Translations under genes and position numbers: made by a program
The notes under the pieces: model-generated
What the model was told of the DNA's origin: nothing
The model's database searches: none
Seen by the model: the letters and a program-made list of their open reading frames with translations, nothing else
Part shown: positions 1-19,997 of the stretch, in pieces
How the letters are laid out: every line of letters begins with the position of its first letter
Position numbering within the stretch: the stretch's first letter is position 1
From: an uncultured Eubacterium sp.
GTDB lineage: Bacteria > Bacillota > Clostridia > Peptostreptococcales > Anaerovoracaceae
NCBI GenBank assembly: GCA_902495595.1
Contig: CABUXV010000006.1
Coordinates: forward strand, 21,566-85,565
Direction: 5' to 3'
DNA: 64,000 bases

Positions 1-773
1 TTCCGCCATCATGTCCAGAGTTGAATCATCAATCTCCCATCCGTGAATGATGAAATCGGCACCTGCTTTTACAGAATTAGCAGCCGAACCGAAACAATGA
101 GCCCAAAGAGGAATATCTCTCATTTTACATTCATCAGCTACAGCCTGAATTTCTTCCATACAGTAGTGCTGTTCCATTCCTTTTTCCCATCGCCAGATTC
201 CGCCGCCTGTTGCCCATATTTTTATTGCATCGGGATTTTCTCTGATTCTGCGACGAACTGCTTTGCGAAGTTCCCACGGTCCGTCAACTTGTTCTGCCCA
301 CGGATGCGAGTCTTTATTTAACTCTATTGATACATTATGAGAATCTCCATGTCCTGCTGTAGAACAAAGTCCAAGACCTGTTGCAACAATCCTCGGCCCC
401 GTCATAATCCCTGCTTCAATCATATTTCTTATATGTATGCCAAATCTTGAAATTTCGCCTACTGTTGTAAGCCCTGCTTCAAGACATTCATGCGCCTGCT
501 GTACTGCAACTACCGCTTTCTGCAAATTGTTTTCCATTACCCAGTCTGTATCATTTTCCGTAAGATTTCCGGAAAAATGAAGATGTGCATCTATAATTCC
601 AGGCATTAGTGTTTTTCCTGTTATATCTATAATTTCAAATCCACTTGGAACTTCTTTTTTTATGCCTGCGTAAACAATCTTTCCATCTTCAACCAAAACC
701 AACGAATCTTCCACAGGACTTGAGCCTGTCCCATCAATCAATAATCCTCCTGTAAAAGCTGTCTTTTTCATAT
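1..773 (-). CDS. Amidohydrolase-family metal-dependent hydrolase. Only the N-terminal 257 aa lie in the window; the C-terminus is beyond the window start.
   Basis: Minus-strand translation from the ATG at 771-773 gives MKKTAFTGGLLIDGTGSS...LMPGIIDAHLHFSGNL. The GIIDxHxH motif after a beta-sandwich N-terminus is typical of the amidohydrolase superfamily. A Shine-Dalgarno GGAGG (reverse complement of 785-789) sits 11 nt upstream of the ATG. Confidence 0.6.
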
Positions 774-1359
774 TTTGCATACCTCCTATATATACGATTA
801 AACACCTTAATCTTATCAATAAATTATAACTTTATACTTTCTCAAATACGCTTAATATACTTACTTATATTGATTTCATCCGGTCTTCGTCACTGTGATA
901 AAATAAAATATCTATATAATTATTTTTGCCAGAGGATTCTATAGTTCTTTCCTTTCCAATAACGCCGCACATTCTGTATGGCTCGATTGGCCCTGATTGA
1001 TGTCAGTTATCGAGAACCTGCCCAAACTAATATGTAATGCAGCAAAATATCTCTGTTTGTTTACGGAAACATATCAACAAATTCTATAGCAAAAAAATAT
1101 CAATACATTACTCTATCCATAGCACAGTCTAAACCTCGCCTATTCACGAGAAAAGTTCAACTCTTTTTTTGTCTCTACTATTATAGTTATACCAACATAA
1201 AAGTCAACTTTTTCGAAGAACTGTTATCGCCTCCACCTTGCCCGTTCTTCATACAGAAAATAGGTCAACGGCTATTTTTAGCCCTAACTGATGGCACTGT
1301 TTCCATGCATTCGACCTTACATGCTGGAAAATTTAGCATTGAAAGCAAGAAACGGCCTG

Positions 1360-2493
1360 TTACTTCTTTGCATTCTCTTCCAGTTCCATCATATACTTAT
1401 CAAAGTCAGACATAAACAATCTGTCCTGAATAACACGGTATTTTTCAAATTCAGTTTCGGCTTTTGCCTTGGCAATCTCTGCTGTGATTTTGCCTGCATC
1501 CTGAAGCACTTCTCTGTCATCGGCCATCAAGAATAAATCCAGTCTCTTCACCCAGTCCTCCATTGTCATCGGAATATGACGTTCTGCACGATCCTCTGCT
1601 AAATCCAGATATGCTGAAACAATACGCTCTAATGAACGCATTTCCTGCTCACTCAGGTAATTTTTTGCAACACTTACATCACTTTTTACAATCTTTCCTC
1701 CCGGTGCTGCTGCCCATGTAGTAAGTCCCATATTCGGCTTATCTGCATCTGCACGCTCGTAAATCAACTCTGCTGAGGTATGTCCGTGAACTGCATAATG
1801 CAGCTTGTTTTGAACCTTTGCAAAGAACTTCTTTGTTGTTTTTGCTGTTCGGTCATAATCAAGAGCTGTAGCATAGATGTCTGTTATCTTCTGATAAAAT
1901 CTACGCTCAGAGAGACGAATCTCACGAATCTGCTCAAGCAAACGGTCAAAGTATTCTTTTGTAAGAACAGATCCACCATTTTTCAGACGTTCATCATCCA
2001 TGACCCAGCCTTTGATGGTGTAGTCCTTTACAATTCTGTTTGCCCACTTACGGAACTGTACAGCTCGCTCATTGTTTACTTTGAATCCAACAGCAATAAT
2101 CATTTGCAGATTATAATGCTTCGTATCACGAGTCACCTGACGCGAGCCTTCGTTTTGAACTATTCGGAAATTCCGAATAGTTGCAGTCTCTTCTAATTCA
2201 CTATCTGCATAAATTTTTTTAATATGTTCATTTATTGTTGGTAAACCAACGTCATATAATATGGCCATCATCTTCTGTGTCAGCCATATATTCTCATCCT
2301 CATAACGCATTTCAATGCTGTCCTGCTGTTCACCAACAGAGGCAACATAGGTTAAGTATTCCGCTGCGCTGGAACGGATGGTGATTTCATTCTTCTTTTT
2401 TGCCAACGCAAATACCTCCGATATTGATTTTATTTGTGTCAAAAGAGTTGACACTTTTCGATACATAATCACGAGTAAAAACTTAAATTTCAA
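1360..2493 (-). CDS. RhuM-family virulence/Fic-DOC-like protein. The probable true start is the TTG at 2404-2406, which follows a GGAGG.
   Basis: The 377-aa ORF contains ...MRYEDENIWLTQKMMAILYDV...NFRIVQNEGSRQVTRDTKHYNLQMIIAVGFKVNNERAVQFRKWANRIVKDYTIKGW, which matches the conserved core of the RhuM (COG3943) family. Confidence 0.7.
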   Translation of the reverse strand: MKFKFLLVIMYRKVSTLLTQIKSISEVFALAKKKNEITIRSSAAEYLTYVASVGEQQDSIEMRYEDENIWLTQKMMAILYDVGLPTINEHIKKIYADSELEETATIRNFRIVQNEGSRQVTRDTKHYNLQMIIAVGFKVNNERAVQFRKWANRIVKDYTIKGWVMDDERLKNGGSVLTKEYFDRLLEQIREIRLSERRFYQKITDIYATALDYDRTAKTTKKFFAKVQNKLHYAVHGHTSAELIYERADADKPNMGLTTWAAAPGGKIVKSDVSVAKNYLSEQEMRSLERIVSAYLDLAEDRAERHIPMTMEDWVKRLDLFLMADDREVLQDAGKITAEIAKAKAETEFEKYRVIQDRLFMSDFDKYMMELEENAKK

Positions 2494-4560
2494 GGCTATA
2501 GTTTCTTTATTTCATCTACAACATCGGAATAGTTTTATTCCAAGTGACTATTTTAATGCTGTTAAGTTCTTGATGAAGCGGATTTACCATTTTCGATATA
2601 TGTGTAAGCTACCATTTTCATTCTCCGTGAAATTGGAATTTACTTATTTCTTTTTATACTTCAGTTTAGCGTGTTAATATCTCAACTTCTTATTGTGTGA
2701 TAGCGAAAAAGATATCTCTTCTATTGTTGCTCTCGTAAATAAAAGCTTTCAAAGGTTTGCTGGTATAAATGGAGTGGTCACCATAAATTACAATGCAACC
2801 TCCGTAGTGCACATGCTTTTATAAAATTTCACCAGCAAGTACTGTATCAAGAATAAAAAACTGCTCTACAACTAACTTTTTGTCAACAACAATGTTCTTT
2901 ATTCTTACGCCACATTTTGCTGTCATCAGCATATCCAATGCATATTATACATCAATAATAACTTTCTCGTCACTATTAATAATGTCTCAAACCTTGCTAT
3001 TCTTCTCTTACTACCAATCTCTCATCAATACCTTATTTCACGTTTCAAACATAGCTAACCTATAACTTCTCGTTTTACATAGGTTAACTCAATATCATCC
3101 CCAATAGTCTCCATCATTTTTATGAAAGTGTTATTGACTACACCGCCCTGCTTTTTAATGATACGGGTCACATATAATTTGGTGGTCTGTATATCTTCCG
3201 CTGTCTATGCTTGAGTAGTGTCGTTCTCTATGCATTTTACTTTTACATCTAACTCAATATTATTTTTAACCACACCGTCCTACTTTTCACAACTTATTTC
3301 ATATTTCAGATAATTATTATACTAAAAAATCATCCGAACTACAATATGTCCGCAAAACTGTTATAAACTTTATGTGACAAAAAACACCCTGCATTTCTGC
3401 AAAATGCTAACTATAGGAGATATTCCTTTATCTTCTCACGTCCACACTTATACCGAATTTCAGCGTCTCTATAACCCTTTCATTGTAAGCCGTTATTTTC
3501 TCAACCAACCTGCGAATCAACCACTCATAATATTGGTGATGTCCTGCGTCTGCTCTGCAAAAGACTGTTGCGTTTCGCCGATTCATTGTTTTATGCTTCC
3601 TGTCCACTAGAGTATTCTGTCTCACTCCACGAAGCGGTAAATCTCATCAGTAATTCTGTCATAATTGTCCTTGGAGTTTGCTACCTTGAACAGTTCTTTT
3701 TGCAATTCTCCTAAACGACGGTCAATCTCACCAAGTGTAATGCCGTCTGTTCCGCTAATCATCGTCTCCACATTTGGAACAATACACGATGCTGAAAACT
3801 ACATATTTACCACTATAAACGCACTTTTTTCGTTCTTTTCTACTGTAAATATTGGCACACCATATCATCTCTTTCTGTCGATTTCAATAGCCTCTTTCAC
3901 AAGCACCATATCCACACCGATATCACGGTCATTAATTTCTTCGCTCACATAGTATTTGTCCCAAATCTTATCCGATACAGGAAAACGGGACAGCTTTGCC
4001 TTGATACCCATCTCCGTTTCCACGTCACGGAGGTTACACGCCTTAAACTGCTTCTATTTTTCCATATCATGCTCTGGCAGATTTCTTGTACGACCGCCGT
4101 TTACCTTGGTCGGCGCACAGGGAACGCAGAAGTATTTGATTAAGGCTTTACCCTCGGTCAGCTTCTGCTTTTCCAATCGCCGGATTTTAAAGCGATGAGA
4201 TAGTTTGCTCTCCAAGAGTTTCTCCATCTTTTGGAAACAGCTGATTTCATCATTTCTCATGGATACAAAGTCACCCATAAGCTGGTGGTTGACCTCGTAG
4301 AGAAAGTCGGCAAATGTCATGGCAGCGGACTTTCCGGCGTGCTCCAAGCTGAGTTCTTACTCGTTCACTAACAGCTTGAAACCAAGAAAAAAGCAGTAGC
4401 CAATCTGGTTTTCCCCAATCATCACAACCAACGTTTGTTGTGAATACCGCAGCCAGACTTAGCACACCAGTCAAAAAACGTTTCATAATCTTTTTCATAC
4501 AATCAATGCTCATTTCGTTTTGGTAAAAAAATAGATTTTCACTTCTGAACATCCAAGTGA
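2494..4560 (-). pseudogene. About 2 kb of degraded coding remnants with no intact ORF. I suspect mobile-element relics, possibly recombinase-like.
   Basis: Minus-strand reading gives protein-like runs broken by stops and frameshifts, for example ...KCGVRIKNIVVDKKLVVEQFFILDTVLAGEIL*KHVHYGGCIVIYGDHSIYTSKPL, ...ISCFQKMEKLLESKLSHRFKIRRLEKQKLTEGKALIKYFCVPCAPTKVNGGRTRNL and ...LGELQKELFKVANSKDNYDRITDEIYRFVE. The only ORF-track entries here are 61-97 aa fragments. Confidence 0.35.
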
Positions 4561-4565
4561 AAATG

Positions 4566-4574
4566 TGATATAAT
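4566..4574 (+). promoter_or_regulatory. Extended -10 promoter element (TGaTATAAT) for the membrane-protein gene.
   Basis: tgaTATAAT lies at 4566-4574, the AGGAGG ribosome-binding site at 4583-4588, and the ATG at 4596. Confidence 0.45.
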
Positions 4575-4595
4575 ATTATGCTAGGAGGAAAACTT

Positions 4596-5348
4596 ATGCT
4601 GGAAATTATTTCAATATGTTTAAATGTAATTACTATTGTTTTAACAATTTACGAATTATTCTGGAAAAAGTCTTCTAATAGTACAAAGCAATATATTCAG
4701 AATAATATAATTCAACAAATCAATCCTAAATACGATATAAAAGTATCATCTACTCCAATGTACAAATTAGATAATGTTGCAATAAAAAATGCACGTTGGA
4801 AATCTAAAAGAATAACTCAATTTGCCACAATTTTGATATATTTATCTACAGCAATTAATTTTGTGAACTATATACAAATAAATACCATTCATTCTGTTAC
4901 TGATTTTACTGCCATTTTTTATATCCCTATGCGGAACACAATGATACAGTTATCTATAATTTTGGTATTATTGTGTATTATTTTTATTGTACGTGGTTGG
5001 AATAAACAACAATCTATATTTTCTAACCTAATGAGTATGAAATATTTTACTTTTAAGATAGTAGTAGATACTTTTGCTATTGTTGGATTAGCACTGGTTG
5101 ATTATTCTCTTTTGGAAAAAATAAACACTAATATACAAAACTCACTTTATACAATTAATCTAATTGGTTGGTCTGCTTTGTTTGTGTTTCAGTTATTATG
5201 GATTCAGCATACAGTTTTAAAAATATATAAGCTTATTCCGTTGTCTAACACGTATGAAGAAAAGGAAAAACAACTATTTGCTTTTGTTCCTGTTTATATT
5301 ATTTCTATCTTACTTTTTGGATTGACCATCTATACAAAGTTTTTCTAA
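4596..5348 (+). CDS. Hypothetical multi-pass membrane protein, very AT-rich. The ORF track starts it at 4578; the ATG at 4596 has the better RBS.
   Basis: The 250-256 aa ORF has about 6 predicted hydrophobic helices (IISICLNVITIVLTIYELFW, ITQFATILIYLSTAINFV, LSIILVLLCIIFIV, FAIVGLALV, LIGWSALFVFQLLWI, VYIISILLFGLTIY). It has its own promoter and a strong downstream terminator. Its orientation is convergent with the defence cassette. Confidence 0.6.
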   Translation: MLEIISICLNVITIVLTIYELFWKKSSNSTKQYIQNNIIQQINPKYDIKVSSTPMYKLDNVAIKNARWKSKRITQFATILIYLSTAINFVNYIQINTIHSVTDFTAIFYIPMRNTMIQLSIILVLLCIIFIVRGWNKQQSIFSNLMSMKYFTFKIVVDTFAIVGLALVDYSLLEKINTNIQNSLYTINLIGWSALFVFQLLWIQHTVLKIYKLIPLSNTYEEKEKQLFAFVPVYIISILLFGLTIYTKFF

Positions 5349-5352
5349 AACA

Positions 5353-5422
5353 AATAGGGCGCTCATTTCTGAACGCCCTATTGTAAGAAAGGGATACTGT
5401 TGTAATCCAGTATCCTTCTTTG
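5353..5422. terminator. Two consecutive hairpins forming a bidirectional terminator between convergent genes.
   Basis: Hairpin 1 is AATAGGGCG-ctcatttctgaa-CGCCCTATT (5353-5382). Hairpin 2 is AAGAAAGGGATACTG-ttgtaatc-CAGTATCCTTCTT (5387-5422). Confidence 0.6.
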
Positions 5423-5428
5423 TAAATC

Positions 5429-5653
5429 TTATTCTATTGTATCCTCACGCTCTATATCGACTACCACAGAAACATTGATATAATCTTTTATGACTTTATT
5501 TCTGCATTTTTCACCGTCGCCAGTGAACGCCATATGCTTGGAAAAGTACCTAAAATTAAGAATTTCTACATAGTTTTTCTTTGTATCAACACTACCGTCT
5601 CCACGTGTGATAGTTAGGCTATTTTTCAGAATTAACCGCTGTCGTAAATTCAA
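5429..5653 (-). CDS. Small hypothetical ORF (74 aa, TTG start) downstream of the helicase gene. It may be a remnant.
   Basis: ORF track only; I recognised no motifs. Confidence 0.2.
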   Translation of the reverse strand: MNLRQRLILKNSLTITRGDGSVDTKKNYVEILNFRYFSKHMAFTGDGEKCRNKVIKDYINVSVVVDIEREDTIE

Positions 5654-5749
5654 CTGTTTTCTTCCACTTAGTCATGTTCCTTTTACAACCTATCTCTTTT
5701 TCGATTAGGCTATTTCTACTTTTATCCGAATCATATAACCTCTGCAAGA

Positions 5750-7996
5750 TTATATACATTGCTCTAAACGCTCGCTTTCATATGGTAATAAATGCTTTTT
5801 TATATAATCACGATTCTCTTTTATAAAATTAACAACTTCATCCTCTGATAGATTAGCAGAAATAACTCGTTCCAATCTTCGCACAGCATTACTCGGAATT
5901 CCGAATTCAACTAAGATAGACAAATTTTTACGTATAAAATCATTTTCTAACTGTTGCACAAAAAAACTATATGACCCTGGTTTAATATTCCTCTTTTCGC
6001 ATATCAAACGTTGTATACTATCTACGACTCTAAATGCTTTTGGCACAGTAAACTGAAACCAATGTCTGTAAATATGAAATGCGGTTTCTACTGCCTCATC
6101 GTAATATTTCGATTTTCTCTCATCTGTCAAAGTTTTCACTTTTGAAATTTTACCGTTATAAATATCATTAACAATATCAATAATATTCTTTTTCATCCTA
6201 TACATATTTAGATATCTCGCAAGCTGTTTTACAGAAAATATTCCGCGTTTATCATCAAAATCAAACAGATTATTCTCTGCTATTTGCAAAACATAATACA
6301 TTTGATCCCATGTAGGCAATTGGCTCCATCGAATGTTTTGTAATGCACCTTCTGTTTTGAAATCTTCAATTAATTTATTATAAATTCTGATTTGTCCATT
6401 TATAGAAACACCATTTTGTTTAATAATACTTAATAAATCTTCCGGAAGTGCATTAATCTGGTCATAGCGATTTTTCACTTGTGGCTTCACATCGCCTTTT
6501 TTTATATTAACAAGTATTTCGTTTGTTAATATTTCAGGATCCTGTTCATAAAATGGGATATCTATCACAATAGACTCCTGTGTTGGAATATGACAAAAAT
6601 TAAATATTCTGCCTACATAGTGCTCCATCATTCTACCAGAACGTCCTTTGATATTGCTATAATCAAAAAAGTCTATTTCGCAGCCTCCCTTTTTTTCATC
6701 AAATAAAATTACATTCTTAGCACTGGTATTTACCCCTTCAATTATTGTAGAAGTGCAAAAAATACAGTTTAACATTCCCTCATTAAAATATTTAATAATT
6801 GAGGCTCCTATATGTTTTTGAAGAGACCCGTCATGAATTGCTATACCATATTGCAATTCCTTAGCCAAACTCCATTCCGATGAAATATTTTTATTTATCC
6901 ATTCTACTAAAGGCAGTCGCTTGTCCTTTTCCTGCCCCTTTTTTTGCAAATACTCTAAATACGTTTTGGCCATACGTCTTGCACGTGCGGGAGTAGAACA
7001 GTAAATAAGCGTTTGCTCATTCCGCATTTCACTTAACAATTCACACAAAATTTCAATTTTTGCTTTATCAATCTGCTTATCACTTTTACTCCAATCAATC
7101 AAATAGCTTTTATCTATTACATCACAATCCACTAACGAAAAATCCGATTTATAAAATATCGCATTATATTTTTCTGCAAATCCTTCTGTTATTCCATCAA
7201 TATTGGGTCCCAAAAAATAAAATCTAGGATGGAATTTATTTACCACCTTTAAAAAAGCATTATTCAAAGTATCTGCGCGATCATCCTTTCTTCTAAGACT
7301 TAATTTATAAAATTCATCTATAATAAGAAAATCTATTGGGGGTAAGGGTTCATATTCCATTACTCTCTCTGCAGTTAATAAAAAAAGATTTCTTTTCTCT
7401 TCTGAATACGGTTGAGAAGTTCTCACAATAATTTTATATTCATCTGCATATTTCTTTAGTTTCAATCGTGTTTCATCTAATAAAGCTAATGTAGGCTGAA
7501 TAATAATTATATTTTTATATTTTTTTGAAGCTACAATTTCTTCTATAAGTAAACTTTTTCCAAAACTTGTTGGCGCACTAGCAATTATATTCTTTCCAGC
7601 CAAAAGATATTGGGATATTTTCTTTTGCTCCCTATGTAAATATGTATTCTCTAAATAATCTGAGCGGAAATAACTCATGCGCACATCATCTGCAAAAGAC
7701 ACCAATTTTAAATCAGAGCTATTTTTTTGAATATACGGATAAAATCCCAATGTTTCGATTAAGTCCGACCATATTTCATATGTGTTTTTATCTACTTTTT
7801 CCCAATTATTTAAAACATGTATTACTATTTTTCTCGCAGACAACTCTGCCTCTGCTGAATGCAGAGACAGTAATTGTGTACAATACGCGACAATTCTAAA
7901 ACTCTGATTTAAAAAGATACTATCTACGCTTTTAATTTCTGGTATAAAATCTGTTGTTTTATCCATCTTCCACCTCAAATATTCTGCATGTGCCAA
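5750..7996 (-). CDS. hamB: SF2 (DExH-like) helicase, which I take to be Hachiman HamB-like.
   Basis: 748 aa. Walker A / motif I is GKNIIASAPTSFGKS, motif II is FLIIDEFYK and motif VI is IKGRSGRMMEH. Its start overlaps the upstream nuclease-like gene by 22 nt, which indicates translational coupling. Confidence 0.6.
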   Translation of the reverse strand: MAHAEYLRWKMDKTTDFIPEIKSVDSIFLNQSFRIVAYCTQLLSLHSAEAELSARKIVIHVLNNWEKVDKNTYEIWSDLIETLGFYPYIQKNSSDLKLVSFADDVRMSYFRSDYLENTYLHREQKKISQYLLAGKNIIASAPTSFGKSLLIEEIVASKKYKNIIIIQPTLALLDETRLKLKKYADEYKIIVRTSQPYSEEKRNLFLLTAERVMEYEPLPPIDFLIIDEFYKLSLRRKDDRADTLNNAFLKVVNKFHPRFYFLGPNIDGITEGFAEKYNAIFYKSDFSLVDCDVIDKSYLIDWSKSDKQIDKAKIEILCELLSEMRNEQTLIYCSTPARARRMAKTYLEYLQKKGQEKDKRLPLVEWINKNISSEWSLAKELQYGIAIHDGSLQKHIGASIIKYFNEGMLNCIFCTSTIIEGVNTSAKNVILFDEKKGGCEIDFFDYSNIKGRSGRMMEHYVGRIFNFCHIPTQESIVIDIPFYEQDPEILTNEILVNIKKGDVKPQVKNRYDQINALPEDLLSIIKQNGVSINGQIRIYNKLIEDFKTEGALQNIRWSQLPTWDQMYYVLQIAENNLFDFDDKRGIFSVKQLARYLNMYRMKKNIIDIVNDIYNGKISKVKTLTDERKSKYYDEAVETAFHIYRHWFQFTVPKAFRVVDSIQRLICEKRNIKPGSYSFFVQQLENDFIRKNLSILVEFGIPSNAVRRLERVISANLSEDEVVNFIKENRDYIKKHLLPYESERLEQCI

Positions 7997-8913
7997 AGAC
8001 GTTTGTGCAAATTAATAACTAATTCATTTTTATCATTTAAAGGGAATAACATAAGAATGATATTAACCCTATCTTTTAATGGCATTTTATTCTGTTTATC
8101 AAAATACTCTTTTAGCTCTCTGATATTTAATTCATGGTAGGTTTCTGCACTAGGATCATTCATATCGGAAAACTTTTTATAAATATCATGTGTATAAGTA
8201 CAAAGCATTGGTATATTTATAATTCTTAGTTTATCGCCTAGCTTTGTACAGTTTGTTATCGTATCAATCCACTCCTGTCTGCCAGGTATTGAATTATTCT
8301 CAAGATTCTTTTTAATTATTACAAACTGATCGTTTAAATAATCTGTATTAATATGTTCATTCAAATCTTTTACTAATGCCTTTATTCCTTCCTTACTATC
8401 ATCGTAAAGTTTACTTTCCCCAAGCCATAAAATTTTTTCATTTGCAGAAATATGCACTGCATCAAACCCATGAGCAGGTACACTCGCACTATCTTTAAAA
8501 TAAACTTTAGAAATTAGTGGTATCGTATGCTTAAATTCTCTTAATATCAAATGCAATAGCAGTTCTCCAAATTCTCCTCTTTTTGCTGTACTAGATTTCT
8601 TTAATTCGTTATATGCATTATTATCTCCATCTACGCACCACTGTTTCACTAGTTGAAAATCTTTAATTTTATAAATACAATGGGCTGCTTCTCTCAATTT
8701 TTCGACAATATCGTTTTGAAGAATATTGGGATCTTCATACTGTGCAAAAACGTATTCCGGAATTGTATTGCAAATAGCTTTAGTGAAATCGTCCAAACGA
8801 TATTTCGGTTGCCCGCTATCATCAATATCCATATCAACCACAAAACTATTTAAATCTTCTTCATTAATCCTAAGTAATATTACATTGCTTTTATCAAAAA
8901 TTCTATTCCCCAT
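7975..8913 (-). CDS. hamA: DUF1837-like PD-(D/E)xK nuclease-fold protein, which I take to be Hachiman HamA-like.
   Basis: 312 aa. It contains RGEFGELLLHLILREF and a D...ExK motif (GFDAVHISANEKILWLGESKLYDD). It sits immediately upstream of the helicase and overlaps it, which is the HamA-HamB gene order. Confidence 0.55.
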   Translation of the reverse strand: MGNRIFDKSNVILLRINEEDLNSFVVDMDIDDSGQPKYRLDDFTKAICNTIPEYVFAQYEDPNILQNDIVEKLREAAHCIYKIKDFQLVKQWCVDGDNNAYNELKKSSTAKRGEFGELLLHLILREFKHTIPLISKVYFKDSASVPAHGFDAVHISANEKILWLGESKLYDDSKEGIKALVKDLNEHINTDYLNDQFVIIKKNLENNSIPGRQEWIDTITNCTKLGDKLRIINIPMLCTYTHDIYKKFSDMNDPSAETYHELNIRELKEYFDKQNKMPLKDRVNIILMLFPLNDKNELVINLHKRLWHMQNI

Positions 8914-9907
8914 TTAAATGCCTTTCTCACAAAACATAATCTTTATTTGTACATTGACTATCTTATTTTCTAAGAGTTTTTATCATTTTCTTGGAACTAT
9001 ATTTTTTGCTTTTTCTTTGGTTACCCTTTTCATTTCTTATCACATTACTTCTCCGCATTTTCTCAATTTGCACTGCTTCAAAAGTTTCCTTCGATATTAT
9101 CGCCGGATTGTTATCAGTTGCCAAATAATGTACTTCGTTTTTCCCCGTTTTCAATAGTCGAACATCCCCTGTATACTTCTCATTACTCAGCATGACATCT
9201 ATTGTTCTCTTACACCATTTCTCCTTCCCCGTAGGAGAAGGGATTTTCTGTTTCTCAAGTTCTTTGATAATCCCCAATACACTTTGTCCTCTCAAATACA
9301 AGTCAAATATGATTTTTACATTTTCCGCTGTTTCTTCATCAATGATTAACTTGCCATTTTCATCATGTTTATACCCATAACACTTTCTATCATATAATTT
9401 CGAAGTTCCTAAAGCAGCTCCCTGCTTAATGCCCCATTTTATATTTTCGCTACGAGACTCATTTTCTGCTTGTGCAAAAGACTCAATAATTGAAATCATT
9501 AGGTCACTGTCTGTCTTTGCTGTATCAAGTTCTTCCTGTTCAAATATTACACGAACACCGGCATTCTTTAATTTACTCAATGCTTCTATAGTTTCAACAG
9601 TATCTCTTCCAAAGCGGCTGATGCTTTTTGTAAAAATAATATCTAGTTTATGAGATGTACAATCATCCAACATACGGTTAAATTCCTTGCGTGAAGAACC
9701 TGTTTTACTGGTCGAGATATCCATATACACATCCGCAAGAAGCCATTGTGGTGTAACCGCCGTTATTTTTGTTAAATGTGATACTTGTGCAGCCAAACTT
9801 TATAACTGCTCCGAACTATTTGTACTGACACGACAATAGATTCCGATGCGCTTGTCCCGTTTCTGTGGTATGGGTGGTATGAAATAAACTTTTTTATAAC
9901 AGTCCAT
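8914..9907 (-). pseudogene. Large serine recombinase pseudogene, with an internal in-frame TAA at 9800-9802 and a truncated C-terminus.
   Basis: The ATG at 9905-9907 gives MDCYKKVYFIPPIPQKRDKRIGIYCRVSTNSSEQL*SLAAQVSHLTKITA...FGRDTVETIEALSKLKNAGVRVIFEQEELD.... This is the catalytic Ser motif (YCRVST) plus the recombinase domain. The frame runs through a second TAA at 8963 into the hamA start codon. The zinc-ribbon and coiled-coil C-terminus is missing. Confidence 0.7.
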
Positions 9908-10017
9908 ACCTCATCTCCTCTACAAATAGGTAATCTACTCTGACAGACTATCTACATAGGCTAATTAACATCCATGTTTATATTGTACATGATAACTAGC
10001 CATTTTACAATCATTCT

Positions 10018-10068
10018 ATCTACTCAACCTACCGCCCTATCAATCCTGTCTACTCAACCTACCGCCAA
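10018..10068. repeat. Tandem direct repeat TCTACTCAACCTACCGCC x2, separated by 13 bp. A third partial copy (TCTACTC) lies at 9934.
   Basis: There are exact 18-bp copies at 10019-10036 and 10051-10068, in the intergenic region between the recombinase relic and the rlmC-like gene. Confidence 0.6.
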
Positions 10069-10186
10069 TTTTCCCCTGGATATGTTTCCGCACAATAAAC
10101 AGGAATAAAAAATCCGGGAGCAAGAACCGTTGTCCAAGTAGTCCCAACTCCCGGAAATCCCTTGTTTCCTACACTATTTCAGTTCC

Positions 10187-11353
10187 TTATTTTTCAGTCC
10201 GTGACAACAACACGACGCACTCGACGTGCTTTGTCCCCGGAAAATTATCAAATGCCTTAACGGATTTCACTTCGTATCCGTAATACTGCATATAATAAAG
10301 ATTATCTGCAAGGCTCTTAGGATTGCACGATATATACACAATCTGTTTTACTCCGTATCCTATTATCTTATCGAGAGCGTTGACAGAAATACCTACTCTC
10401 GGAGGGTCCACCACTATTACCTCCGGTTTTTCGTCCTCGGGCAGTGCGTCTAAAACTTCAAAAACATCTCCCGCAATAAAACGGCAGTTATCAAGTCCGT
10501 TAAGCGCTGCATTTGATTTTGCCGCTTCAACCGCTTCTTCCACAAGCTCGATGCCTATAACTTCCCTCGCCTTTTGCGCCAGCACCTGGGTTATGGTTCC
10601 CGTGCCGCAGTACAGGTCAAATGCAACCTTGTTTTCAAAATCATCTATAAGCCCTATAGCATAAGAATAAAGTTTTTCTACGGCATCAACATTTGTCTGA
10701 AAGAATGAAAATGCGCTCACCTTGAATTTCAGCCCCATTATTTCTTCGTTGTAATAATCTCTTCCCCACAGGACCTTAAGCTCATCACAGTAAACAGCAT
10801 CGGCGAGTCTGTCGTTTACAGTTCTAAGCACACCCACAACTTTGTTTTCAAGGGGCAGAGATAGAATCATCTGCGAAAAACCATCTTCATCAAATCCGTC
10901 TTCGGAACTTGTAACCACGTTTACGAGAAGTTCGCCTGTTCTTACGCCTCTTCTTACTATCAAGTGTCTCATAAGACCCTTATGGGATTTTTTATGATAG
11001 TGGGAATAACCTCGTGACGAGGCAAATTCAAGAACGCCTCTCAGGATTTTATTAAAATCATCGTGAACAAGCTGGCATTAATCGACGGTTATTATGGACA
11101 TAAAATGTCTTTTCTTGTGCATGCCCAGAGTCATAGGTCCGTCTTTTTCCATATCGCCGAAAGTGTATTCCATCTTATTTCTGTAGCAGTATCTGTCTGG
11201 CGCCGGCTGTATATCAAAAAGCTCTCCGTATTTTATATCCTTTTTATCGAGAAGCCCCTTTACCTCGCCGTACTTATTTGAAAGCTGCTCTTCATAAGGC
11301 ACGCCTTGATATACACATCCGCCGCAGATTTTACTGTCTTTACATATCTCCAT
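10187..11353 (-). pseudogene. TrmA-family 23S rRNA (uracil-5)-methyltransferase (RlmC/RumB-like, no TRAM domain), interrupted by a single in-frame TAA at 11078-11080.
   Basis: The N-terminal ORF gives MEICKDSKICGGCVYQGVPYEEQLS... with an Fe-S Cys cluster. The same frame continues after the TAA as CQLVHDDFNKILRGVLEFASSRGYSHYHKKSHKGLMRHLIVRRG...DLYCGTGTITQVLA (SAM motif I) ...ISCNPKSLADNL. There is no frameshift. Confidence 0.6.
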
Positions 11354-11356
11354 ATT

Positions 11357-12993
<1,637 letters not shown>

Positions 12994-14043
12994 CTATTCA
13001 ATAAACATAGCATCGCCATAGCTGAAAAATCGATATTTTTTCTCTATGGCTTCCTGATATACCGAAAGTATTTTTTCTCTGTCATAAAGAGCGGAAATAA
13101 GCATGAGAAGCGTTGACTTGGGCAGATGAAAATTTGTTATCAGACTGTCCACAATCTTAAATTCATAACCCGGATATATAAAAATACCCGTATTTCCGTT
13201 TCCGCTATTTACCTGCATGCACCCCTTTTCCCGGTCAAAATACGCCGCGCTTTCCACGGTTCTCGTAGAAGTTGTGCCTACAGAAACAATTCTTCTGCCC
13301 TCCTGCTTTGCCTTATTTATAATGTGAGCGCTATCTTTGCTTACATGATATTCCTCAAAATGCATGGAATGCTCTTCTATATTATCGCATTTCACAGGAC
13401 GAAAAGTACCTATTCCCACGTGAAGCGTAACATAAGCCAGCTCCACGCCTTTATTCTTTGCCTTTTCCAAAATCTCATCTGTAAAATGAAGACCTGCCGT
13501 AGGCGCCGCCACGGACCCCTCTTTCTCACAGTAAACGGTCTGATATCTATTCTTATCATCCGCTTCACTGCTTCTTTCTATATAGGGAGGAAGAGGCATG
13601 CTGCCGATTTCCTCAAGACGTTCCATAAAAATCCCATCGTATGTAAATTCAACGATTCTCGTTCCGTCTTCACCATAGTCCATTATTTTAGCTTTTAAAA
13701 GAGGCTTTTCCGAGAAGACAACCCTATCTCCCGGCTTTAGTCTTTTCCCCGGCTTTACCATGGTTTCCCATGAGTCTCCCTCTATTCGCTTTATGAGCAA
13801 GAATTCAACTTTTGCCCCCGTATTTTCCTTTATACCATGAAGTCTTGCCGGCAAAACCTTTGAATTGTTAAGTACCAGGCAGTCTCCCTCCTTTAGATAA
13901 TCCAAGATATCATAAAAATGTCTGTGCTCCGTTTCACCGCTGTTTCGGTGAACGACCAAAAGCCTTGACTCATCCCGTTTCTCCGCCGGTTTTTGAGCAA
14001 TAAGCTCTTCCGGCAGATTATAATCAAAATCTTCTATTCTCAT
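12994..14043 (-). CDS. queA: S-adenosylmethionine:tRNA ribosyltransferase-isomerase.
   Basis: 349 aa, [31 protein letters not shown]... Confidence 0.95.
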
Positions 14044-15080
14044 CCTTGCTCCTCAATATCAATTTCCGTCTGACTGCCGTCTTCAAAATCAATGCCTAAA
14101 TGTCTGTATGCCTGTTCAGACACTACTCTGCCCTTCTGCGTTCTGTGAAGAAAACCCACCTGTATCAGATACGGCTCATAGACATCTTCTATTGTCACCC
14201 TTTCTTCGCCTATGGATGCAGCTATGGTATCTATGCCTACAGGGCCTCCCTTAAATCTTTCAATTATGGTTTTCAAAATTTCCCTGTCAAGACTCTCAAG
14301 TCCCATATCATCTACACCTAAAGCTTTCAGCGCTTCCTGCGTTATGTCTATATCAATGAAACCATTTCCTTTTACCTGTGAAAAATCCCTTACCCTCTTA
14401 AGCATCCTGTTTGCAACCCTTGGGGTTCCTCTGGACCTCTTTGCCATCTCTGTAAGTGAATTGTCATCGACTTTAACCCCCAGTATATCCGCAGACCTTG
14501 AAATTATCTTTTTAAGCTCCTCTGTAGTATACATTTCAAATTTACAGCTGACTCCAAATCTGTCCCTCAGCGGAGCCGAAAGGCTTCCTGCTCTCGTTGT
14601 AGCACCTATCAATGTGAATTTTGCAATATCAAGTCTTATGGACCGGGCAGACGGTCCCTTTCCAATTATTATATCAAGAGCAAAATCTTCCATAGCCGAA
14701 TACAGAACTTCTTCAACCGACCTGTTCAGTCTGTGTATCTCATCTATGAACAATACATCATTTTCGTTTAAATTAGTAAGTATTGCAGCCAAATCTCCCG
14801 CCCTTTCTATGGCAGGTCCCGATGTTATTCTTATATCTACTTCCATCTCATTGGCAATTATTCCGGCAAGTGTAGTCTTTCCAAGCCCGGGAGGACCATA
14901 AAACAAGACATGATCCAGAGGCTCATTTCTGAGTTTTGCCGCTTCTATAAAAATCTTTAAATTGTCCGAAGCTTTTTTCTGCCCTATGTAATCTTCGAGC
15001 TTCTGCGGTCTTAAGGTAAGTTCACTTCTTTCTTCTCCATGCCCCAGTTCCGCAGCCGTTATTCTTTCTTCATAATCCAT
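14040..15080 (-). CDS. ruvB: Holliday junction helicase RuvB.
   Basis: [14 protein letters not shown]...; an ATGA overlap with queA. Confidence 0.95.
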
Positions 15081-15128
15081 AAATCTATCCTTTTATCATC
15101 CGTGTGATTTTACAATGCGTCTAAACAA

Positions 15129-15728
15129 TTAAATCAGGTTCTTAAGCGCTGCCTTAATATAATCTTCTGCCGAAAGCTCCGTATCTTTTACATGAGCTAA
15201 AGCGCTTGCCGCCTCTCCTCTTGTATATCCCAAAGCTATGAGCGCTTCTATAGCTTCCGTTTTTCCATTTTGTGATGATACTCCCGGTGAAATCTCTCCC
15301 GCAAAATCATTTCCTGAGACTTCAGGAGCATTAAATTTGTCTTTGAGTTCAAGCACAATTCTCTCTGCAGTCTTCTTGCCTATACCATTTGCCTTTGTAA
15401 GCGCCTTCGAGTCTTCAAAGGCGATGGTTTCCTGAAGCTGTTCAAGCGTAAAAGCCGATAAAATCGAAAGACCTGCCTTTGCTCCGACTCCGTTTACGGT
15501 AATCAGTTTCTTAAAGGCATCAAGTTCACCTTTTCTTGAAAATCCATAGAGGCTCACATCATCATCTCTTACCATCATTGACGTGTATACTTTAACCTGC
15601 TCACCCTCGCTGCAAAGATAAGCGCCGGAATTTGCCGGAACAAATATTTCATATCCTATTCCGCCCACATCAACTATAATATATCCATTTCCTTTTTCAG
15701 AAAGAATACCCTTTACAAAACCTATCAT
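15129..15728 (-). CDS. ruvA: Holliday junction DNA helicase RuvA.
   Basis: 199 aa, MIGFVKGIL...[14 protein letters not shown]. Confidence 0.9.
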
Positions 15729-16228
15729 TTTATATTAAACTCCTTTAATCTTTTCTTCGTATCTGCCGAATGTCCGTGACATATGGCAGCAGCCAGCGCA
15801 TCAGCCGTATCGTCAGGTTTAGGTATTTGTCTTAAATTTAATATTGTCTTAACCATCATCTGTACCTGTTTTTTTTCAGCTCTTCCATACCCCACAAGCG
15901 CCTGTTTTATCTGCAAAGGCGTGTATTCTTCTATTTCAAGACCTCCTTTTACGCAGGCAAGTACAGCCACACCCCTGGCCTGTCCCACTAAAATAGCAGT
16001 TTTAGCATTCGTATTAAAAAATAATTCTTCTATGGACGCCACGTCAGGTCTATGTTCTTCAATTATCTCCCTTAGAGAGTCATAAAGATATTCCAGCCTT
16101 TCATTCATAGGCATTTTGGCGTCTGTAGTTACAGCGCCGTAATCGCACACTCTGAATTTATTTCCTGTTTTCTCCACTATACCGTAGCCTAATATGGCAT
16201 ATCCCGGGTCGATTCCTAGTATTTTCAT
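15725..16228 (-). CDS. ruvC: Crossover junction endodeoxyribonuclease RuvC.
   Basis: [18 protein letters not shown]... Confidence 0.9.
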
Positions 16229-16380
16229 TAGTCAATCTCTTTCTGTCATATACTTTTTGACTTAATCCATTTGAGATTAAGCATAACAATCCAATATAAG
16301 TATAGCATATATCACAGCCTTTCGTTAAACAAAAAAATCTTTTCTTTCATCTCAAATACTGTTAAAAATTTATATAAGAC

Positions 16381-16410
16381 TTGAGTATTTTTTTCATTTT
16401 ATGGTATAAT
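16381..16410 (+). promoter_or_regulatory. Candidate sigma-A promoter for argR: TTGAGT, 18 nt, then TATAAT.
   Basis: Hexamers at 16381-16386 and 16405-16410. Confidence 0.4.
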
Positions 16411-16452
16411 TATAAATATATTTATAAAAAAATATAACGTTACAAAAGCTTT

Positions 16453-16481
16453 TATATTGCAGCCCGGCTTGCTGCAATATA
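16453..16481 (+). promoter_or_regulatory. Perfect 11-bp inverted repeat TATATTGCAGC-ccggctt-GCTGCAATATA in the argR leader, directly abutting the RBS.
   Basis: Arms at 16453-16463 and 16471-16481; the GGAGG RBS is at 16489-16493. Confidence 0.45.
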
Positions 16482-16500
16482 TATTTGCGGAGGAATTAAT

Positions 16501-16953
16501 ATGCGGATTTCAAGACAAAATAAAATACTCGAACTCATTGAAACTTACGAGATTGAGACTCAGGATAAATTAGCATCAATGCTGCGTGATTTTGGATACG
16601 AAGTGACTCAGGCTACGATTTCCAGAGACATAAAAGAGCTGCAGCTCATCAAGACATTATCTTCTACAGGAAAGTATAAATATGCGGCGGCATCAAGCAG
16701 CGACGCCCCCATATCCGGAAGACTTTCAAATATCTACAGGGAAACGGTCAAGTCCACTTCATACTCGGGCAACATAGTGCTTCTCAAAACGCTTTCGGGA
16801 TGCGCCAGCGCAGCGGCGGAAGCGCTGGACTCTTTCGGTATTCCTCATATTATCGGTTCGGTTGCCGGTGATAATACCATCATGTTTGTTGTGGATGAAC
16901 CGGAGAACTCACCGGAAGTAGTTGCTTTTCTGAATAATATGTTAAAAAAATAA
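16501..16953 (+). CDS. argR: Arginine repressor.
   Basis: 150 aa, MRISRQNKILELIETYEIETQDKLASMLRDFGYEVTQATISRDIKEL. Confidence 0.9.
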   Translation: MRISRQNKILELIETYEIETQDKLASMLRDFGYEVTQATISRDIKELQLIKTLSSTGKYKYAAASSSDAPISGRLSNIYRETVKSTSYSGNIVLLKTLSGCASAAAEALDSFGIPHIIGSVAGDNTIMFVVDEPENSPEVVAFLNNMLKK

Positions 16954-16989
16954 AATACAGTAACAATCAGTTATCAGAGGTATCACATC

Positions 16990-18609
16990 ATGATAAGACA
17001 TATAAGCATAAGAAACTTTGCAACCATAGAAAACGCAGATATAGATTTTCACAATGGATTAAATATAATAACCGGCGAAACAGGCGCCGGAAAATCAGTT
17101 GCAGTAGAAGCAGTAAGCCTGGCTCTGGGAAGCCGGGCAGATACTGCTTTTATTCGGTTTGGAAAAGAAAAAGCCGTAATTCAGATGATAGCAGATCACA
17201 AAGGCTGCGAATACATAATAACAAGAGAAATATCATCTGCCGGAAAAAACATATGTAAAGTCAACGATGAAATCGTAACCCTCGCCCATCTCAGCACTCT
17301 CTGCAAGAAACTTGCTGACATTCACGGACAATATGACCATCAGTCTCTTCTCAATCCCGATTACCATATACATTTGGTCGACATGTACCGTAAAGATAAA
17401 ATCACTCCGGCAAAGGAACACGTAAATGAATTATATGAAAAATATTCAGAATCAAAATCAAAACTCAAAGCCCTTCTGACCCAAGCCGCACAAGATAAGA
17501 GAGCACAGGACTTTATGCAGTTTGAGTTTGACGAGCTTTCCGAAGCAAACATGAAAATAGGTGAAGATGATGAACTAGAAGAAAAAATTGCTCTTCTTCA
17601 AAACAGTGAAAAAATATATGAAAATTTAGCCGGCGCATACCAGGCAGCCTCTGAAGACGAATATTCCATACTTTCCGCAATAAGAAGAGTAACGGATATG
17701 GTTTCCGAAACTTCAGCCTATTCTCAGGAACTCGAAGAGCTTAGCCAGAGGTTAAACGAGCTTTATTACGAATTTGAAGATATATCCGCCTCTATAAGAG
17801 AAAGCCGTGACGACGCCGTATTTTCACCGGAAGAGCTCGATTATGCCATATCAAGAATAGAAACAATAAATAAATTAAAAAACAAACACGGAAAAACCAT
17901 AGAAGAACTGTTGGAATATCAAAAAGAACTTGATGAAAAACTTTCAAATATGGAAAATGCAGATTACCTCACTAAACAGCTCCAGCAGGAAATGTCATCA
18001 TATAAATCCCAGCTTGAAGAAGCATGCGGCAAACTTTCCCAAATAAGAAAAGAAGCTGCCTCTCAGCTTGAAAAAAGCATAACAGATGAACTCATGCAGC
18101 TTAATTTCAACGACGCTGAATTTTCAATAGAATTTAAAAGAAGCGAAACCTTTACTTCAAACGGATATGATACAGTTGAATTTATAATAAGCACTAATAA
18201 AGGAGAACCCCTGAAACCTCTTAGTAAAATTGCTTCCGGCGGTGAAATGTCCAGGATAATGCTCGCATTCAAAAAAATAATCGGAGACTATGATGAAATA
18301 CCTACTATGATATTTGATGAAATAGACAGCGGAATAAGCGGTATCACCGCCAGCATCGTAGGCAGCAAACTCAGAGAAATAGCAAAGACTCACCAGATAA
18401 TATGTATCACACACCTCCCTCAAATAGCTGCTTTTGGTACTCATAATTATAAAATACAAAAAGACTCCGACGAAGATATGACGTATACTACAATCATTCC
18501 TCTTAATACAGAAGAAAAAATCAAAGAAATTGCCAGACTTCTCGGAGGCACAAATATAACAGAAACAACCTTAAAATCAGCAGAAGAACTCATATCATCA
18601 TCTGTCTGA
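16990..18609 (+). CDS. recN: DNA repair protein RecN.
   Basis: 539 aa. N-terminal Walker A is GETGAGKS and the C-terminal signature is ...ASGGEMSRIMLAF...DEIDSGISG. Confidence 0.9.
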   Translation: MIRHISIRNFATIENADIDFHNGLNIITGETGAGKSVAVEAVSLALGSRADTAFIRFGKEKAVIQMIADHKGCEYIITREISSAGKNICKVNDEIVTLAHLSTLCKKLADIHGQYDHQSLLNPDYHIHLVDMYRKDKITPAKEHVNELYEKYSESKSKLKALLTQAAQDKRAQDFMQFEFDELSEANMKIGEDDELEEKIALLQNSEKIYENLAGAYQAASEDEYSILSAIRRVTDMVSETSAYSQELEELSQRLNELYYEFEDISASIRESRDDAVFSPEELDYAISRIETINKLKNKHGKTIEELLEYQKELDEKLSNMENADYLTKQLQQEMSSYKSQLEEACGKLSQIRKEAASQLEKSITDELMQLNFNDAEFSIEFKRSETFTSNGYDTVEFIISTNKGEPLKPLSKIASGGEMSRIMLAFKKIIGDYDEIPTMIFDEIDSGISGITASIVGSKLREIAKTHQIICITHLPQIAAFGTHNYKIQKDSDEDMTYTTIIPLNTEEKIKEIARLLGGTNITETTLKSAEELISSSV

Positions 18610-18882
18610 CCGAAGAAAGGATGATAAAATATCCAAATCTCCTATTTATAATATATATTTGGATAAAAACCTACGGATATTGCCTGCAAAAAAAACATCA
18701 ATAACCAATACATGTATATATAAGAAGATTATGGATAAAAATATGATGGCAATTTACATATATTGACATAAAAATAACCAAAACAACTTTTAACTCGAGA
18801 TTTTGGATAATCAGCACCGGCAGAACCCGGCTAAAGAGGTGTTTTTTATCCAAAACATATGAATATAAAGCGCTTTTGGATA

Positions 18883-18900
18883 AACCCAGTTTCCTGGGTT
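18883..18900 (-). terminator. Hairpin AACCCAG-tttc-CTGGGTT downstream of the minus-strand gene that ends at 18926.
   Basis: Perfect 7-bp stem; the trailing U-tract on the minus strand is weak. Confidence 0.35.
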
Positions 18901-18925
18901 AAAAATGAAAAATCATCCGCTATTA

Positions 18926-19924: not shown

Positions 19925-19997
19925 TCATCTTTCTCCACATTTATTATAATGAAAAAAGAAGCAGCTTTCGAGCTGCTTCTGCAATTATCCAGGTAAA

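What the first reader, a model, noticed from the sequence alone, without database searches (positions are those of the whole stretch)
5750..8913. Two-gene Hachiman-like defence cassette: DUF1837-like nuclease plus SF2 helicase
Two coupled minus-strand genes sit inside an accessory island: a 312-aa protein with a PD-(D/E)xK-type D...ESK motif and a 748-aa helicase (motifs I, II and VI present). Generic annotation would call them a hypothetical protein and a DEAD/DEAH helicase. The nuclease-then-helicase order and the sizes match Hachiman (HamA/HamB). The helicase has DEFY where DExH would be expected, and it is somewhat shorter than typical HamB, so it may be a divergent subtype.
Basis: partly seen in the sequence, partly recalled or inferred. 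Interest (0 to 1): 0.7.

Follow-up and report, generated by a model that had tools for sequence, protein, structure and literature searches.

The report
Ordinary two-gene Hachiman phage-defence cassette

Summary
Both ORFs exist as described. The 312-aa protein (7975..8913, minus strand) matches Pfam HamA/DUF1837 over the full profile (161 bits, cutoff 25) and a PADLOC HamA1 model end to end (411 bits). The helicase matches a PADLOC HamB1 model end to end (779 bits). Its real start is most likely the ATG at 7966 (738 aa), not the TTG at 7996 (748 aa). The genes lie 8 nt apart, and no HamC is present, so this is Hachiman type I.

DEFY in motif II is invariant in 19 homologues and is also present in E. 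coli AbpB, an experimentally validated HamB of 729 aa. A 312-aa + ~735-aa pair is common in gut Clostridia and also occurs in Bacillus cereus.

The accessory-island claim is confirmed. Strains of the same species have an empty site, which places the island at 981..10226. It is inserted in the 3' end of an rRNA/tRNA uracil-methyltransferase gene and carries a dead serine-recombinase gene.

One modest nuance: the helicase is AbpB-like, while HamA is a stand-alone DUF1837 with an intact active site. In passing, most related contigs of this species carry a frameshifted hamB.

Verdict: a new member of a known kind, low interest.

The parts
7975..8913 (-). hamA: 312-aa stand-alone DUF1837 PD-(D/E)xK nuclease. 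Putative active site E114/E117, D151, E166, K168.
   Evidence: Pfam PF08878 161 bits, full profile. PADLOC HamA1 PDLC00150 411 bits, 2-310/310. Motif residues invariant in 19 homologues. AlphaFold2 model pLDDT 76, pTM 0.80. The only significant Foldseek PDB hits are the three solved HamA chains 8zue_A, 8vxy_A and 8vx9_A.
5750..7966 (-). hamB: 738-aa Ski2/Hel308-like SF2 helicase of the AbpB-like branch. The mechanical ORF extends to the TTG at 7996, giving 748 aa.
   Evidence: PADLOC HamB1 PDLC00180 779 bits, 16-705/709. Best PDB sequence hit is 8zue_B AbpB, E 1e-71, over 51-731. Motifs I, II (DEFY) and VI invariant. AlphaFold2 pLDDT 81. Foldseek top hit 8zue_B, E 9.5e-27, TM 0.69/0.78.
7964..7985 (-). 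hamA-hamB junction: hamA stop TGA (7977..7975), Shine-Dalgarno-like GAGGTGGA overlapping it, and the hamB ATG at 7966. This layout suggests translational coupling.
   Evidence: Sequence read directly. The same 8-nt spacing is seen in homologous loci L001, L096 and L099.
981..10226 (.). A 9.25-kb accessory island carrying the cassette, inserted in the 3' end of a uracil-5-methyltransferase (rlmD/trmA-type) gene. The junctions share the dinucleotide CA, and the island supplies a replacement for the last 13 codons.
   Evidence: Empty-site contigs L089, L093 and L094 align at 99.4% to window 22476..10227 and then directly to 980..1. Junction sequences and the two alternative C-termini are shown.
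9014..9865 (-). N-terminal part (about aa 16-320) of a large serine recombinase pseudogene. The YCRVST catalytic motif is followed by an in-frame stop.
   Evidence: Pfam Resolvase + Recombinase. tblastn with intact 521/522-aa recombinases of L087. Frame translation shows the stop.
3437..3774 (-). C-terminal remnant (about aa 404-520) of the same type of serine recombinase, 5.2 kb from the N-terminal part. The low-GC hamAB block lies between the two parts.
   Evidence: tblastn of the L087 522-aa recombinase; GC profile.
1360..2406 (-). RhuM-family gene at the far end of the island. It matches a PADLOC phage-defence candidate family and is not part of Hachiman.
   Evidence: Pfam PF13310 382 bits; PADLOC PDC-S05 517 bits.
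4578..5348 (+). 256-aa multi-pass membrane protein convergent with hamB, family unknown. It is not conserved alongside hamAB in other species.
   Evidence: No hit in Pfam, PADLOC, PHROGs or NCBIfam. Homology with L096 ends at 5743.
5353..5382 (-). Terminator-like GC-rich hairpin between the convergent hamB and membrane-protein genes.
   Evidence: Consensus scan only: 13-bp stem with 6 GC pairs.

Best explanation
This is a type I Hachiman anti-phage system. The following mechanism is inferred from characterised homologues, not shown here.

HamA, a stand-alone DUF1837 PD-(D/E)xK nuclease, and HamB, a Ski2/Hel308-like SF2 DNA helicase, are co-translated and form a heterodimer. HamB's N-terminal helical domain holds HamA inactive while the complex surveys intact DNA. 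When infection produces aberrant or damaged DNA, HamB's ATPase/helicase activity licenses HamA. HamA then degrades DNA indiscriminately, so the infected cell dies before releasing phage (abortive infection).

Within the family, the helicase belongs to the compact AbpB-like branch: about 735 aa, DEFY motif II, and an all-helical C-terminus with no OB barrel. HamA keeps its own catalytic D...ExK and has no extra effector domain.

The cassette is cargo of a decayed element that integrated by a serine recombinase. It lies in a known type of hotspot, the 3' end of a uracil-methyltransferase gene, in an uncultured gut Anaerovoracaceae bacterium close to Lentihominibacter. It was probably acquired horizontally from Lachnospiraceae-type Clostridia.
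For: **Shown here**
- Profile matches: full-length, very high-scoring hits to HamA/DUF1837 and to HamA1/HamB1.
- Catalytic residues: nuclease and helicase residues are all present and invariant in homologues.
- Structure: the predicted HamA fold matches only the solved HamA chains. The predicted HamB fold matches AbpB best (TM 0.69/0.78), then Pol-theta/Hel308/Ski2 helicases.
- Operon layout: an 8-nt gap with an RBS over the hamA stop.
- Type I rather than II: no DUF3223/HamC in the neighbouring ORFs.
- Conserved unit: the 312 + 738 aa pair with the same spacing recurs in other species in different surroundings. It sits next to a type I R-M system (L096), next to serine recombinases and a caspase-like peptidase in Blautia (L099), and next to Gabija on a B. 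cereus plasmid.
- Accessory status: the same species has an empty site, the island has low GC, and about 60 related species lack hamAB at this locus.

**From the literature (mechanism)**
- HamAB heterodimer, mutations of the HamA D-ExK motif and of HamB ATPase residues abolish defence, activation by DNA damage, degradation of all cellular DNA: PMC12278908.
- AbpAB structure 8ZUE, dsDNA-stimulated ATPase, and a DUF1837-only HamA as the active nuclease in type I-A systems: PMC11914072.
Against: - No experiment exists on this locus or on any member closer than E. coli AbpB (Foldseek reports 23% identity to HamB). Complex formation, nuclease activity and phage protection are all inferred.
- The window's HamA has no detectable sequence match to any solved HamA by phmmer or by a narrow profile. 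Only the Pfam/PADLOC profiles and the fold search link them.
- Seven of ten same-species contigs carry a disrupted hamB. The system may therefore be dispensable or costly in this host, and activity of the intact window allele is not guaranteed.
- The trigger (3' ssDNA ends versus dsDNA) differs between the two characterised systems and cannot be assigned here.
Confidence: 0.93

Rival explanations
1. The cassette is a decaying, non-functional remnant. The genes are Hachiman by descent, but in this host they are being lost and give no defence.
For: Same-species contigs carry hamB frameshifts: A7 to A6 at 6497-6503 in six contigs, and an 8-bp deletion at 7519-7526 in one. The surrounding element is clearly decayed, with a recombinase pseudogene split into two parts and a gene-poor stretch at 2500-4550.
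Against: In the window, and in L001 and L008, both ORFs are full length with every catalytic residue intact. The RBS and gene spacing are preserved.
Confidence: 0.12
2. The pair is a housekeeping or DNA-repair helicase-nuclease operon of the host, for example a Hel308-like repair helicase with a partner nuclease.
For: HamB resembles the Hel308/Pol-theta/Ski2 repair helicases in sequence and fold. The neighbouring genes include ruvCAB, a UDG-family gene (Pfam PF03167), queA and tgt.
Against: NCBIfam Hel308 equivalogs score 32-47 bits against cutoffs of about 900-1200. The pair is absent from same-species empty-site strains and from about 60 related species that keep the flanking genes. It lies in a low-GC island bounded by integration junctions. 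The HamA1/HamB1 defence profiles fit end to end.
Confidence: 0.02
3. It belongs to a different Hachiman class: type II (with HamC), an effector-fused subtype (I-B/C/D), or a Hachiman-trypsin-MBL module.
For: PADLOC HamA2/HamB2 models also score well, at 161 and 644 bits. The helicase is closest to AbpB, whose partner AbpA has a Cap4 nuclease fusion.
Against: The top-scoring models are type I. No DUF3223, peptidase or MBL gene lies next to the pair. HamA is 312 aa, with DUF1837 covering residues 41-292 and no second domain. The DUF1837 active site is intact, unlike in subtypes I-B, I-C and I-D.
Confidence: 0.03

Closest known systems
E. coli K-12 AbpAB (YfjL/YfjK), called Hachiman 'type I-B'; cryo-EM structure 8ZUE
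   Same: HamB is the closest solved relative: E 1e-71 over residues 51-731, Foldseek TM 0.69/0.78. It has a similar length (729 vs 738 aa), the same IDEFYKL motif II and the same GKS motif I position (K128 vs K137). The C-terminus is all-helical with no OB barrel (PMC11914072). The gene order is also hamA then hamB, tightly coupled.
   Different: AbpA is 531-538 aa, with an N-terminal Cap4-type nuclease and a catalytically dead DUF1837 (PMC11914072). Here HamA is 312 aa, DUF1837 only, and D151/E166/K168 are conserved. The nuclease here should therefore be DUF1837 itself.
E. coli ECOR31 / DEC14B HamAB, called Hachiman 'type I-A'; structures 8VX9, 8VXA, 8VXY
   Same: HamA is a stand-alone DUF1837 nuclease with a D-ExK active site (E138/K140 in ECOR31, E150/K152 in DEC14B, E166/K168 here). 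It is a two-gene system. The predicted HamA fold matches 8vxy_A and 8vx9_A.
   Different: ECOR31 HamB has DEGH in motif II, with its catalytic D at position 431, so its N-terminal region is much longer. It also has WH* and OB-like domains. It does not appear among the PDB sequence hits or the top 50 fold hits for this HamB.
Bacillus cereus plasmid pRML05 DUF1837 + DEAD/DEAH helicase pair, next to Gabija GajA
   Same: Same architecture and sizes (312 aa + 731 aa), 43% and 48% identity, and LDEFYKL motif II. It sits in a defence-gene neighbourhood.
   Different: It lies in a different phylum-level host lineage and on a megaplasmid rather than a chromosomal island. I could not establish whether the experimentally tested B. 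cereus B4087 system belongs to this same branch.
Hel308 / Pol-theta helicase domain / Ski2 family SF2 helicases
   Same: RecA1-RecA2 core and overall helicase fold.
   Different: They lack the N-terminal helical HamA-binding region and have no DUF1837 partner. NCBIfam Hel308 equivalog scores fall far below their cutoffs.

Membership tests
Hachiman (type I, PADLOC/DefenseFinder sense) | HamA protein containing the DUF1837/HamA domain | tested here: met
   Pfam PF08878 161 bits (cutoff 25), profile 1-230/230. PADLOC HamA1 411 bits, end to end. Foldseek hits only the solved HamA chains.
Hachiman (type I, PADLOC/DefenseFinder sense) | HamB, a Ski2-like SF2 helicase matching HamB profiles with intact ATPase motifs | tested here: met
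   PADLOC HamB1 779 bits, 16-705/709. Motifs I, II and VI invariant. Best PDB relative is AbpB.
Hachiman (type I, PADLOC/DefenseFinder sense) | hamA and hamB adjacent, co-oriented, forming one operon | tested here: met
   8-nt gap, with the RBS overlapping the hamA stop. The same spacing is seen in unrelated genomes.
Hachiman (type I, PADLOC/DefenseFinder sense) | No HamC (DUF3223), which separates type I from type II (PMC8565338) | tested here: met
   No DUF3223 hit in any ORF flanking the pair. Neighbouring genes differ between species.
Hachiman (type I, PADLOC/DefenseFinder sense) | HamA-HamB heterodimer formed through HamB's N-terminal helical domain | not testable with these tools
   The AlphaFold2 model shows a helical bundle at residues 4-122, ahead of RecA1, and the alignment to AbpB starts at residue 51. 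No complex prediction or binding assay was possible.
Hachiman (type I, PADLOC/DefenseFinder sense) | Confers phage resistance (abortive infection, DNA degradation) | not testable with these tools
   Needs cloning and phage challenge.
Hachiman subtype I-A (PMC11914072: HamA is DUF1837 only, with an active site) | Single-domain HamA with a conserved (D/E)xK motif | tested here: met
   312 aa with only the HamA domain. D151, E166 and K168 invariant in 19 homologues.
Hachiman subtype I-A as exemplified by ECOR31 | HamB with WH* and a C-terminal OB-like barrel, and DEGH motif II | tested here: not met
   Motif II is DEFY. The model is all-helical after about residue 456. ECOR31 HamB is absent from the sequence hits and from the top fold hits.
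Hachiman subtype I-B (AbpAB) | HamA with an N-terminal Cap4-type nuclease and a catalytically inactive DUF1837 | tested here: not met
   There is no extra domain, and the DUF1837 active-site residues are present.

The most novel reading that the evidence does not exclude
This compact branch may be a mechanistically uncharacterised Hachiman configuration: an AbpB-like helicase without an OB domain, paired with a stand-alone, catalytically intact DUF1837. The sensing mode of the 'type I-B' helicase (dsDNA-stimulated) would then be coupled directly to the DUF1837 nuclease. In this gut species, hamB may also be switched off recurrently at an A7 tract, as a crude on/off control of a costly self-destructive system.
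Probability: 0.12. Interest if true: 0.4.

Novelty: new member of a known kind. Interest (0 to 1): 0.15.

Why it matters
This adds one more Hachiman locus, in an uncultured gut Anaerovoracaceae bacterium, to a family already found in more than 5% of prokaryotic genomes. It does not change how the system is understood.

Two things have modest value:
- It is a clean natural example of a defence cassette riding in a serine-recombinase integration hotspot. The same species provides empty, prophage-occupied and Hachiman-occupied versions of the site.
- Population data show frequent hamB inactivation, which fits the reported autoimmunity cost of Hachiman.

Tried and rejected
- **HamA against PDB sequences.** phmmer and a 19-sequence profile found nothing, even at E 10. 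The link to solved HamA structures had to come from the fold search.
- **Phage genome search.** A distant blastn with the cassette found no match, so there is no evidence that a known phage carries it.
- **Plasmid search.** It gave only partial (22%) hits at 71.5% identity on B. cereus group megaplasmids. These were useful only for showing the same architecture there.
- **Promoter scan.** It was no better than shuffled sequence (28 sites against 24.9 expected), so no promoter is assigned.
- **A third conserved gene.** The small ORFs 5619..5759 and 5429..5653 and the 256-aa membrane protein have no family hits. Nucleotide homology to other loci stops at the hamB stop codon. I therefore rejected them as parts of the system.
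- **NCBIfam.** It has no model that names HamA.
- **Species identification.** The nearest genome representatives are only 85% identical in the methyltransferase (Lentihominibacter faecis and an uncultured Clostridia MAG). The species is not pinned down beyond Anaerovoracaceae, near Lentihominibacter.
- **B. cereus B4087.** I could not determine whether the founding B. cereus B4087 Hachiman belongs to this compact branch.
Full report
**1. Observation**

The two minus-strand ORFs exist as reported: 7975..8913 (312 aa, ATG) and 5750..7996 (748 aa from a TTG). The TTG is only the mechanically longest start. An ATG at 7966 is preceded by GAGGTGGA, which overlaps the hamA TGA stop. Gene callers on identical metagenome contigs use this start and give a 738-aa product. 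The genes are therefore separated by 8 nt and are probably translationally coupled. GC is 0.27-0.32 over 4500-9000, against about 0.41 in the flanks.

**2. Identity of the proteins**

*HamA.*
- The 312-aa protein hits Pfam HamA/DUF1837 (PF08878) at 161 bits (cutoff 25), covering profile positions 1-230 of 230.
- It hits PADLOC HamA1 model PDLC00150 at 411 bits over 2-310/310.
- In an alignment with 18 homologues of 60-85% identity, E114, E117, D151, E166, S167 and K168 are invariant. This corresponds to the D-ExK active site whose mutation abolishes defence in ECOR31 (E138/K140) and DEC14B (E150/K152) (PMC12278908 and PMC11914072).
- Sequence searches against PDB chains found nothing.
- An AlphaFold2 model (pLDDT 76, pTM 0.80) retrieved the three solved HamA chains as its only meaningful hits: 8zue_A, 8vxy_A and 8vx9_A, each with probability 1.00 and TM 0.45-0.59.

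*HamB.*
- The helicase hits PADLOC HamB1 PDLC00180 at 779 bits over 16-705/709.
- Its best PDB relative is 8zue_B, E. coli K-12 AbpB (E 1e-71, residues 51-731).
- In 19 homologues, motif I (A131-PTSFGKS138), motif II (D217-E-F-Y220) and motif VI (G441-RSGR445) are invariant.
- The AlphaFold2 model (pLDDT 81) matches AbpB best (E 9.5e-27, TM 0.69/0.78). Pol-theta, Hel308 and Ski2 helicases follow.

**3. The 'divergent' features are normal for this branch**

AbpB, a validated Hachiman helicase of 729 aa, also reads IDEFYKL at motif II. ECOR31 HamB reads DEGH. PADLOC (2023) already holds full-length models of about 310 and 709-721 positions that fit these two proteins end to end.

Thousands of related proteins exist (993 HamA and 4831 HamB hits). 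Many are 312 + ~731-738 aa pairs in gut Clostridia such as Blautia, Roseburia, Anaerostipes, Acetatifactor and Hespellia. A 312 + 731 aa pair (43% and 48% identity) sits beside Gabija gajA on a B. cereus plasmid.

No DUF3223/HamC gene is present. By the definition of Payne et al. (PMC8565338) the system is therefore type I.

**4. A modest nuance**

In the HamA-based scheme of PMC11914072 this is type I-A, because HamA is DUF1837 only and has an active site. The helicase, however, is of the AbpB kind, which that paper describes for type I-B. It lacks the WH*/OB domains and is stimulated by dsDNA rather than by 3' ssDNA.

The model here is all-helical after about residue 456, with no barrel. ECOR31 HamB appears neither in the PDB sequence hits nor in the top 50 fold hits. 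No member of this exact configuration was found to be biochemically characterised. Whether the B. cereus B4087 system belongs to this branch could not be determined.

**5. Genomic context**

*Host.* The host is an uncultured gut member of the Anaerovoracaceae. The nearest genome representatives, at 85% identity in the methyltransferase, are Lentihominibacter faecis and an uncultured Clostridia MAG.

*Relatives.* About 60 related species keep tgt and the methyltransferase gene, but none has hamAB downstream.

*Empty site and island limits.* Contigs of the same species, with an identical Tgt protein and 99.4% DNA identity, show an empty site in L089, L093 and L094. There the methyltransferase gene is followed directly by the amidohydrolase, Macro and MatE genes. 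This places the island at window 981..10226 (9.25 kb).

*Junctions.* The junctions share the dinucleotide CA. The island replaces the last 13 codons of the methyltransferase gene with a similar sequence of its own. Both features are typical of site-specific integration by a large serine recombinase; that statement rests on general knowledge of such elements.

*Hotspot.* In other strains the same site holds a prophage with two intact 521/522-aa serine recombinases (L087, L091) or another small insert (L088).

*The island's recombinase is dead.* Its YCRVST motif is followed by an in-frame stop. Residues ~16-320 lie at 9865..9014, and residues ~404-520 lie at 3774..3437. The low-GC hamAB block sits between the two parts.

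*Shared block.* A 4.15-kb block (9892..5743) comprising the recombinase remnant, hamA and hamB is 84% identical to a MAG locus, L096, where a type I R-M system follows. In Blautia (L099) only hamAB is shared, at 78%. That locus has serine recombinases upstream and a caspase-like peptidase downstream. The two-gene pair is thus the conserved unit, and it travels as cargo.

**6. Mechanism (inferred)**

By homology, HamA and HamB form a heterodimer in which HamB restrains the HamA nuclease. Aberrant DNA generated during infection triggers HamB's ATPase/helicase activity. HamA then degrades cellular and phage DNA, aborting the infection (PMC12278908, PMC11914072).

Shown here are the domain content, the intact catalytic residues, the operon structure and the accessory status. 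Inferred are complex formation, the nature of the trigger, nuclease activity and protection.

**7. Rival explanations**

- A housekeeping repair operon is excluded by the empty sites and by absence from relatives.
- Another Hachiman class is excluded by the domain tests.
- A non-functional remnant cannot be excluded for the species as a whole. Seven of ten same-species contigs carry a disrupted hamB: A7 to A6 at 6497-6503 in six contigs, and an 8-bp deletion at 7519-7526 in one. The window allele, however, is intact.

**8. Verdict**

This is a new member of a well-known defence system and is of low interest.

Noticed in passing
window 6497-6503 and 7519-7526 (hamB); loci L002, L003, L004, L005, L006, L007, L092: In contigs of the same species that encode an identical HamA, hamB is often broken. 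A single-A deletion in an A7 tract splits it into 492 + 246 aa in six contigs, and an 8-bp deletion splits it in a seventh. Only the window, L001 and L008 are intact. This could reflect the fitness cost of Hachiman, a crude on/off switch, or one inherited loss-of-function allele. Some of the samples may come from the same cohort.
   Followed up: partly
window 10187..11353 (-), nonsense change at 11080: The uracil-5-methyltransferase (rlmD/trmA-type) gene next to the island is split into 91 + 261 aa by a point nonsense change (T here, G in L089). It is an intact 388-aa gene in most same-species contigs. Its last 13 codons are also supplied by the island.
   Followed up: partly
window 9014..9865 (-) and 3437..3774 (-): A large serine recombinase pseudogene lies in two pieces 5.2 kb apart, with an in-frame stop just after the catalytic YCRVST motif. 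The low-GC hamAB block lies between the pieces, and residues ~321-403 (the zinc-ribbon region) are missing.
   Followed up: yes
window 980/981 and 10226/10227; loci L087, L088, L089, L091, L093, L094: The 3' end of the methyltransferase gene is an integration hotspot within this species. Different strains show an empty site, a prophage with two intact 521/522-aa serine recombinases, a different 1.9-kb insert, or the Hachiman island.
   Followed up: yes
window 1360..2406 (-): A RhuM-family gene at the far end of the island matches the PADLOC phage-defence candidate family PDC-S05 at 517 bits. It may be a second defence-associated gene on the same island.
   Followed up: no
window 4578..5348 (+): A 256-aa, very AT-rich multi-pass membrane protein lies convergent with hamB and has no hit in Pfam, PADLOC, PHROGs or NCBIfam. 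It is present in all same-species island copies but not next to hamAB in other species.
   Followed up: partly
window 2500..4550: A gene-poor stretch of the island holds only short overlapping ORFs on both strands. GC rises to 0.43 around 3500-4500. It is probably degraded remains of the original integrative element.
   Followed up: no
locus L099 (Blautia) 8316-9797; locus L096 8326-14217: Close homologues of this hamAB pair are followed by a caspase-like Peptidase_C14 gene in Blautia and by a complete type I R-M system in a MAG. Both show the cassette sitting in varied defence-island neighbourhoods.
   Followed up: no
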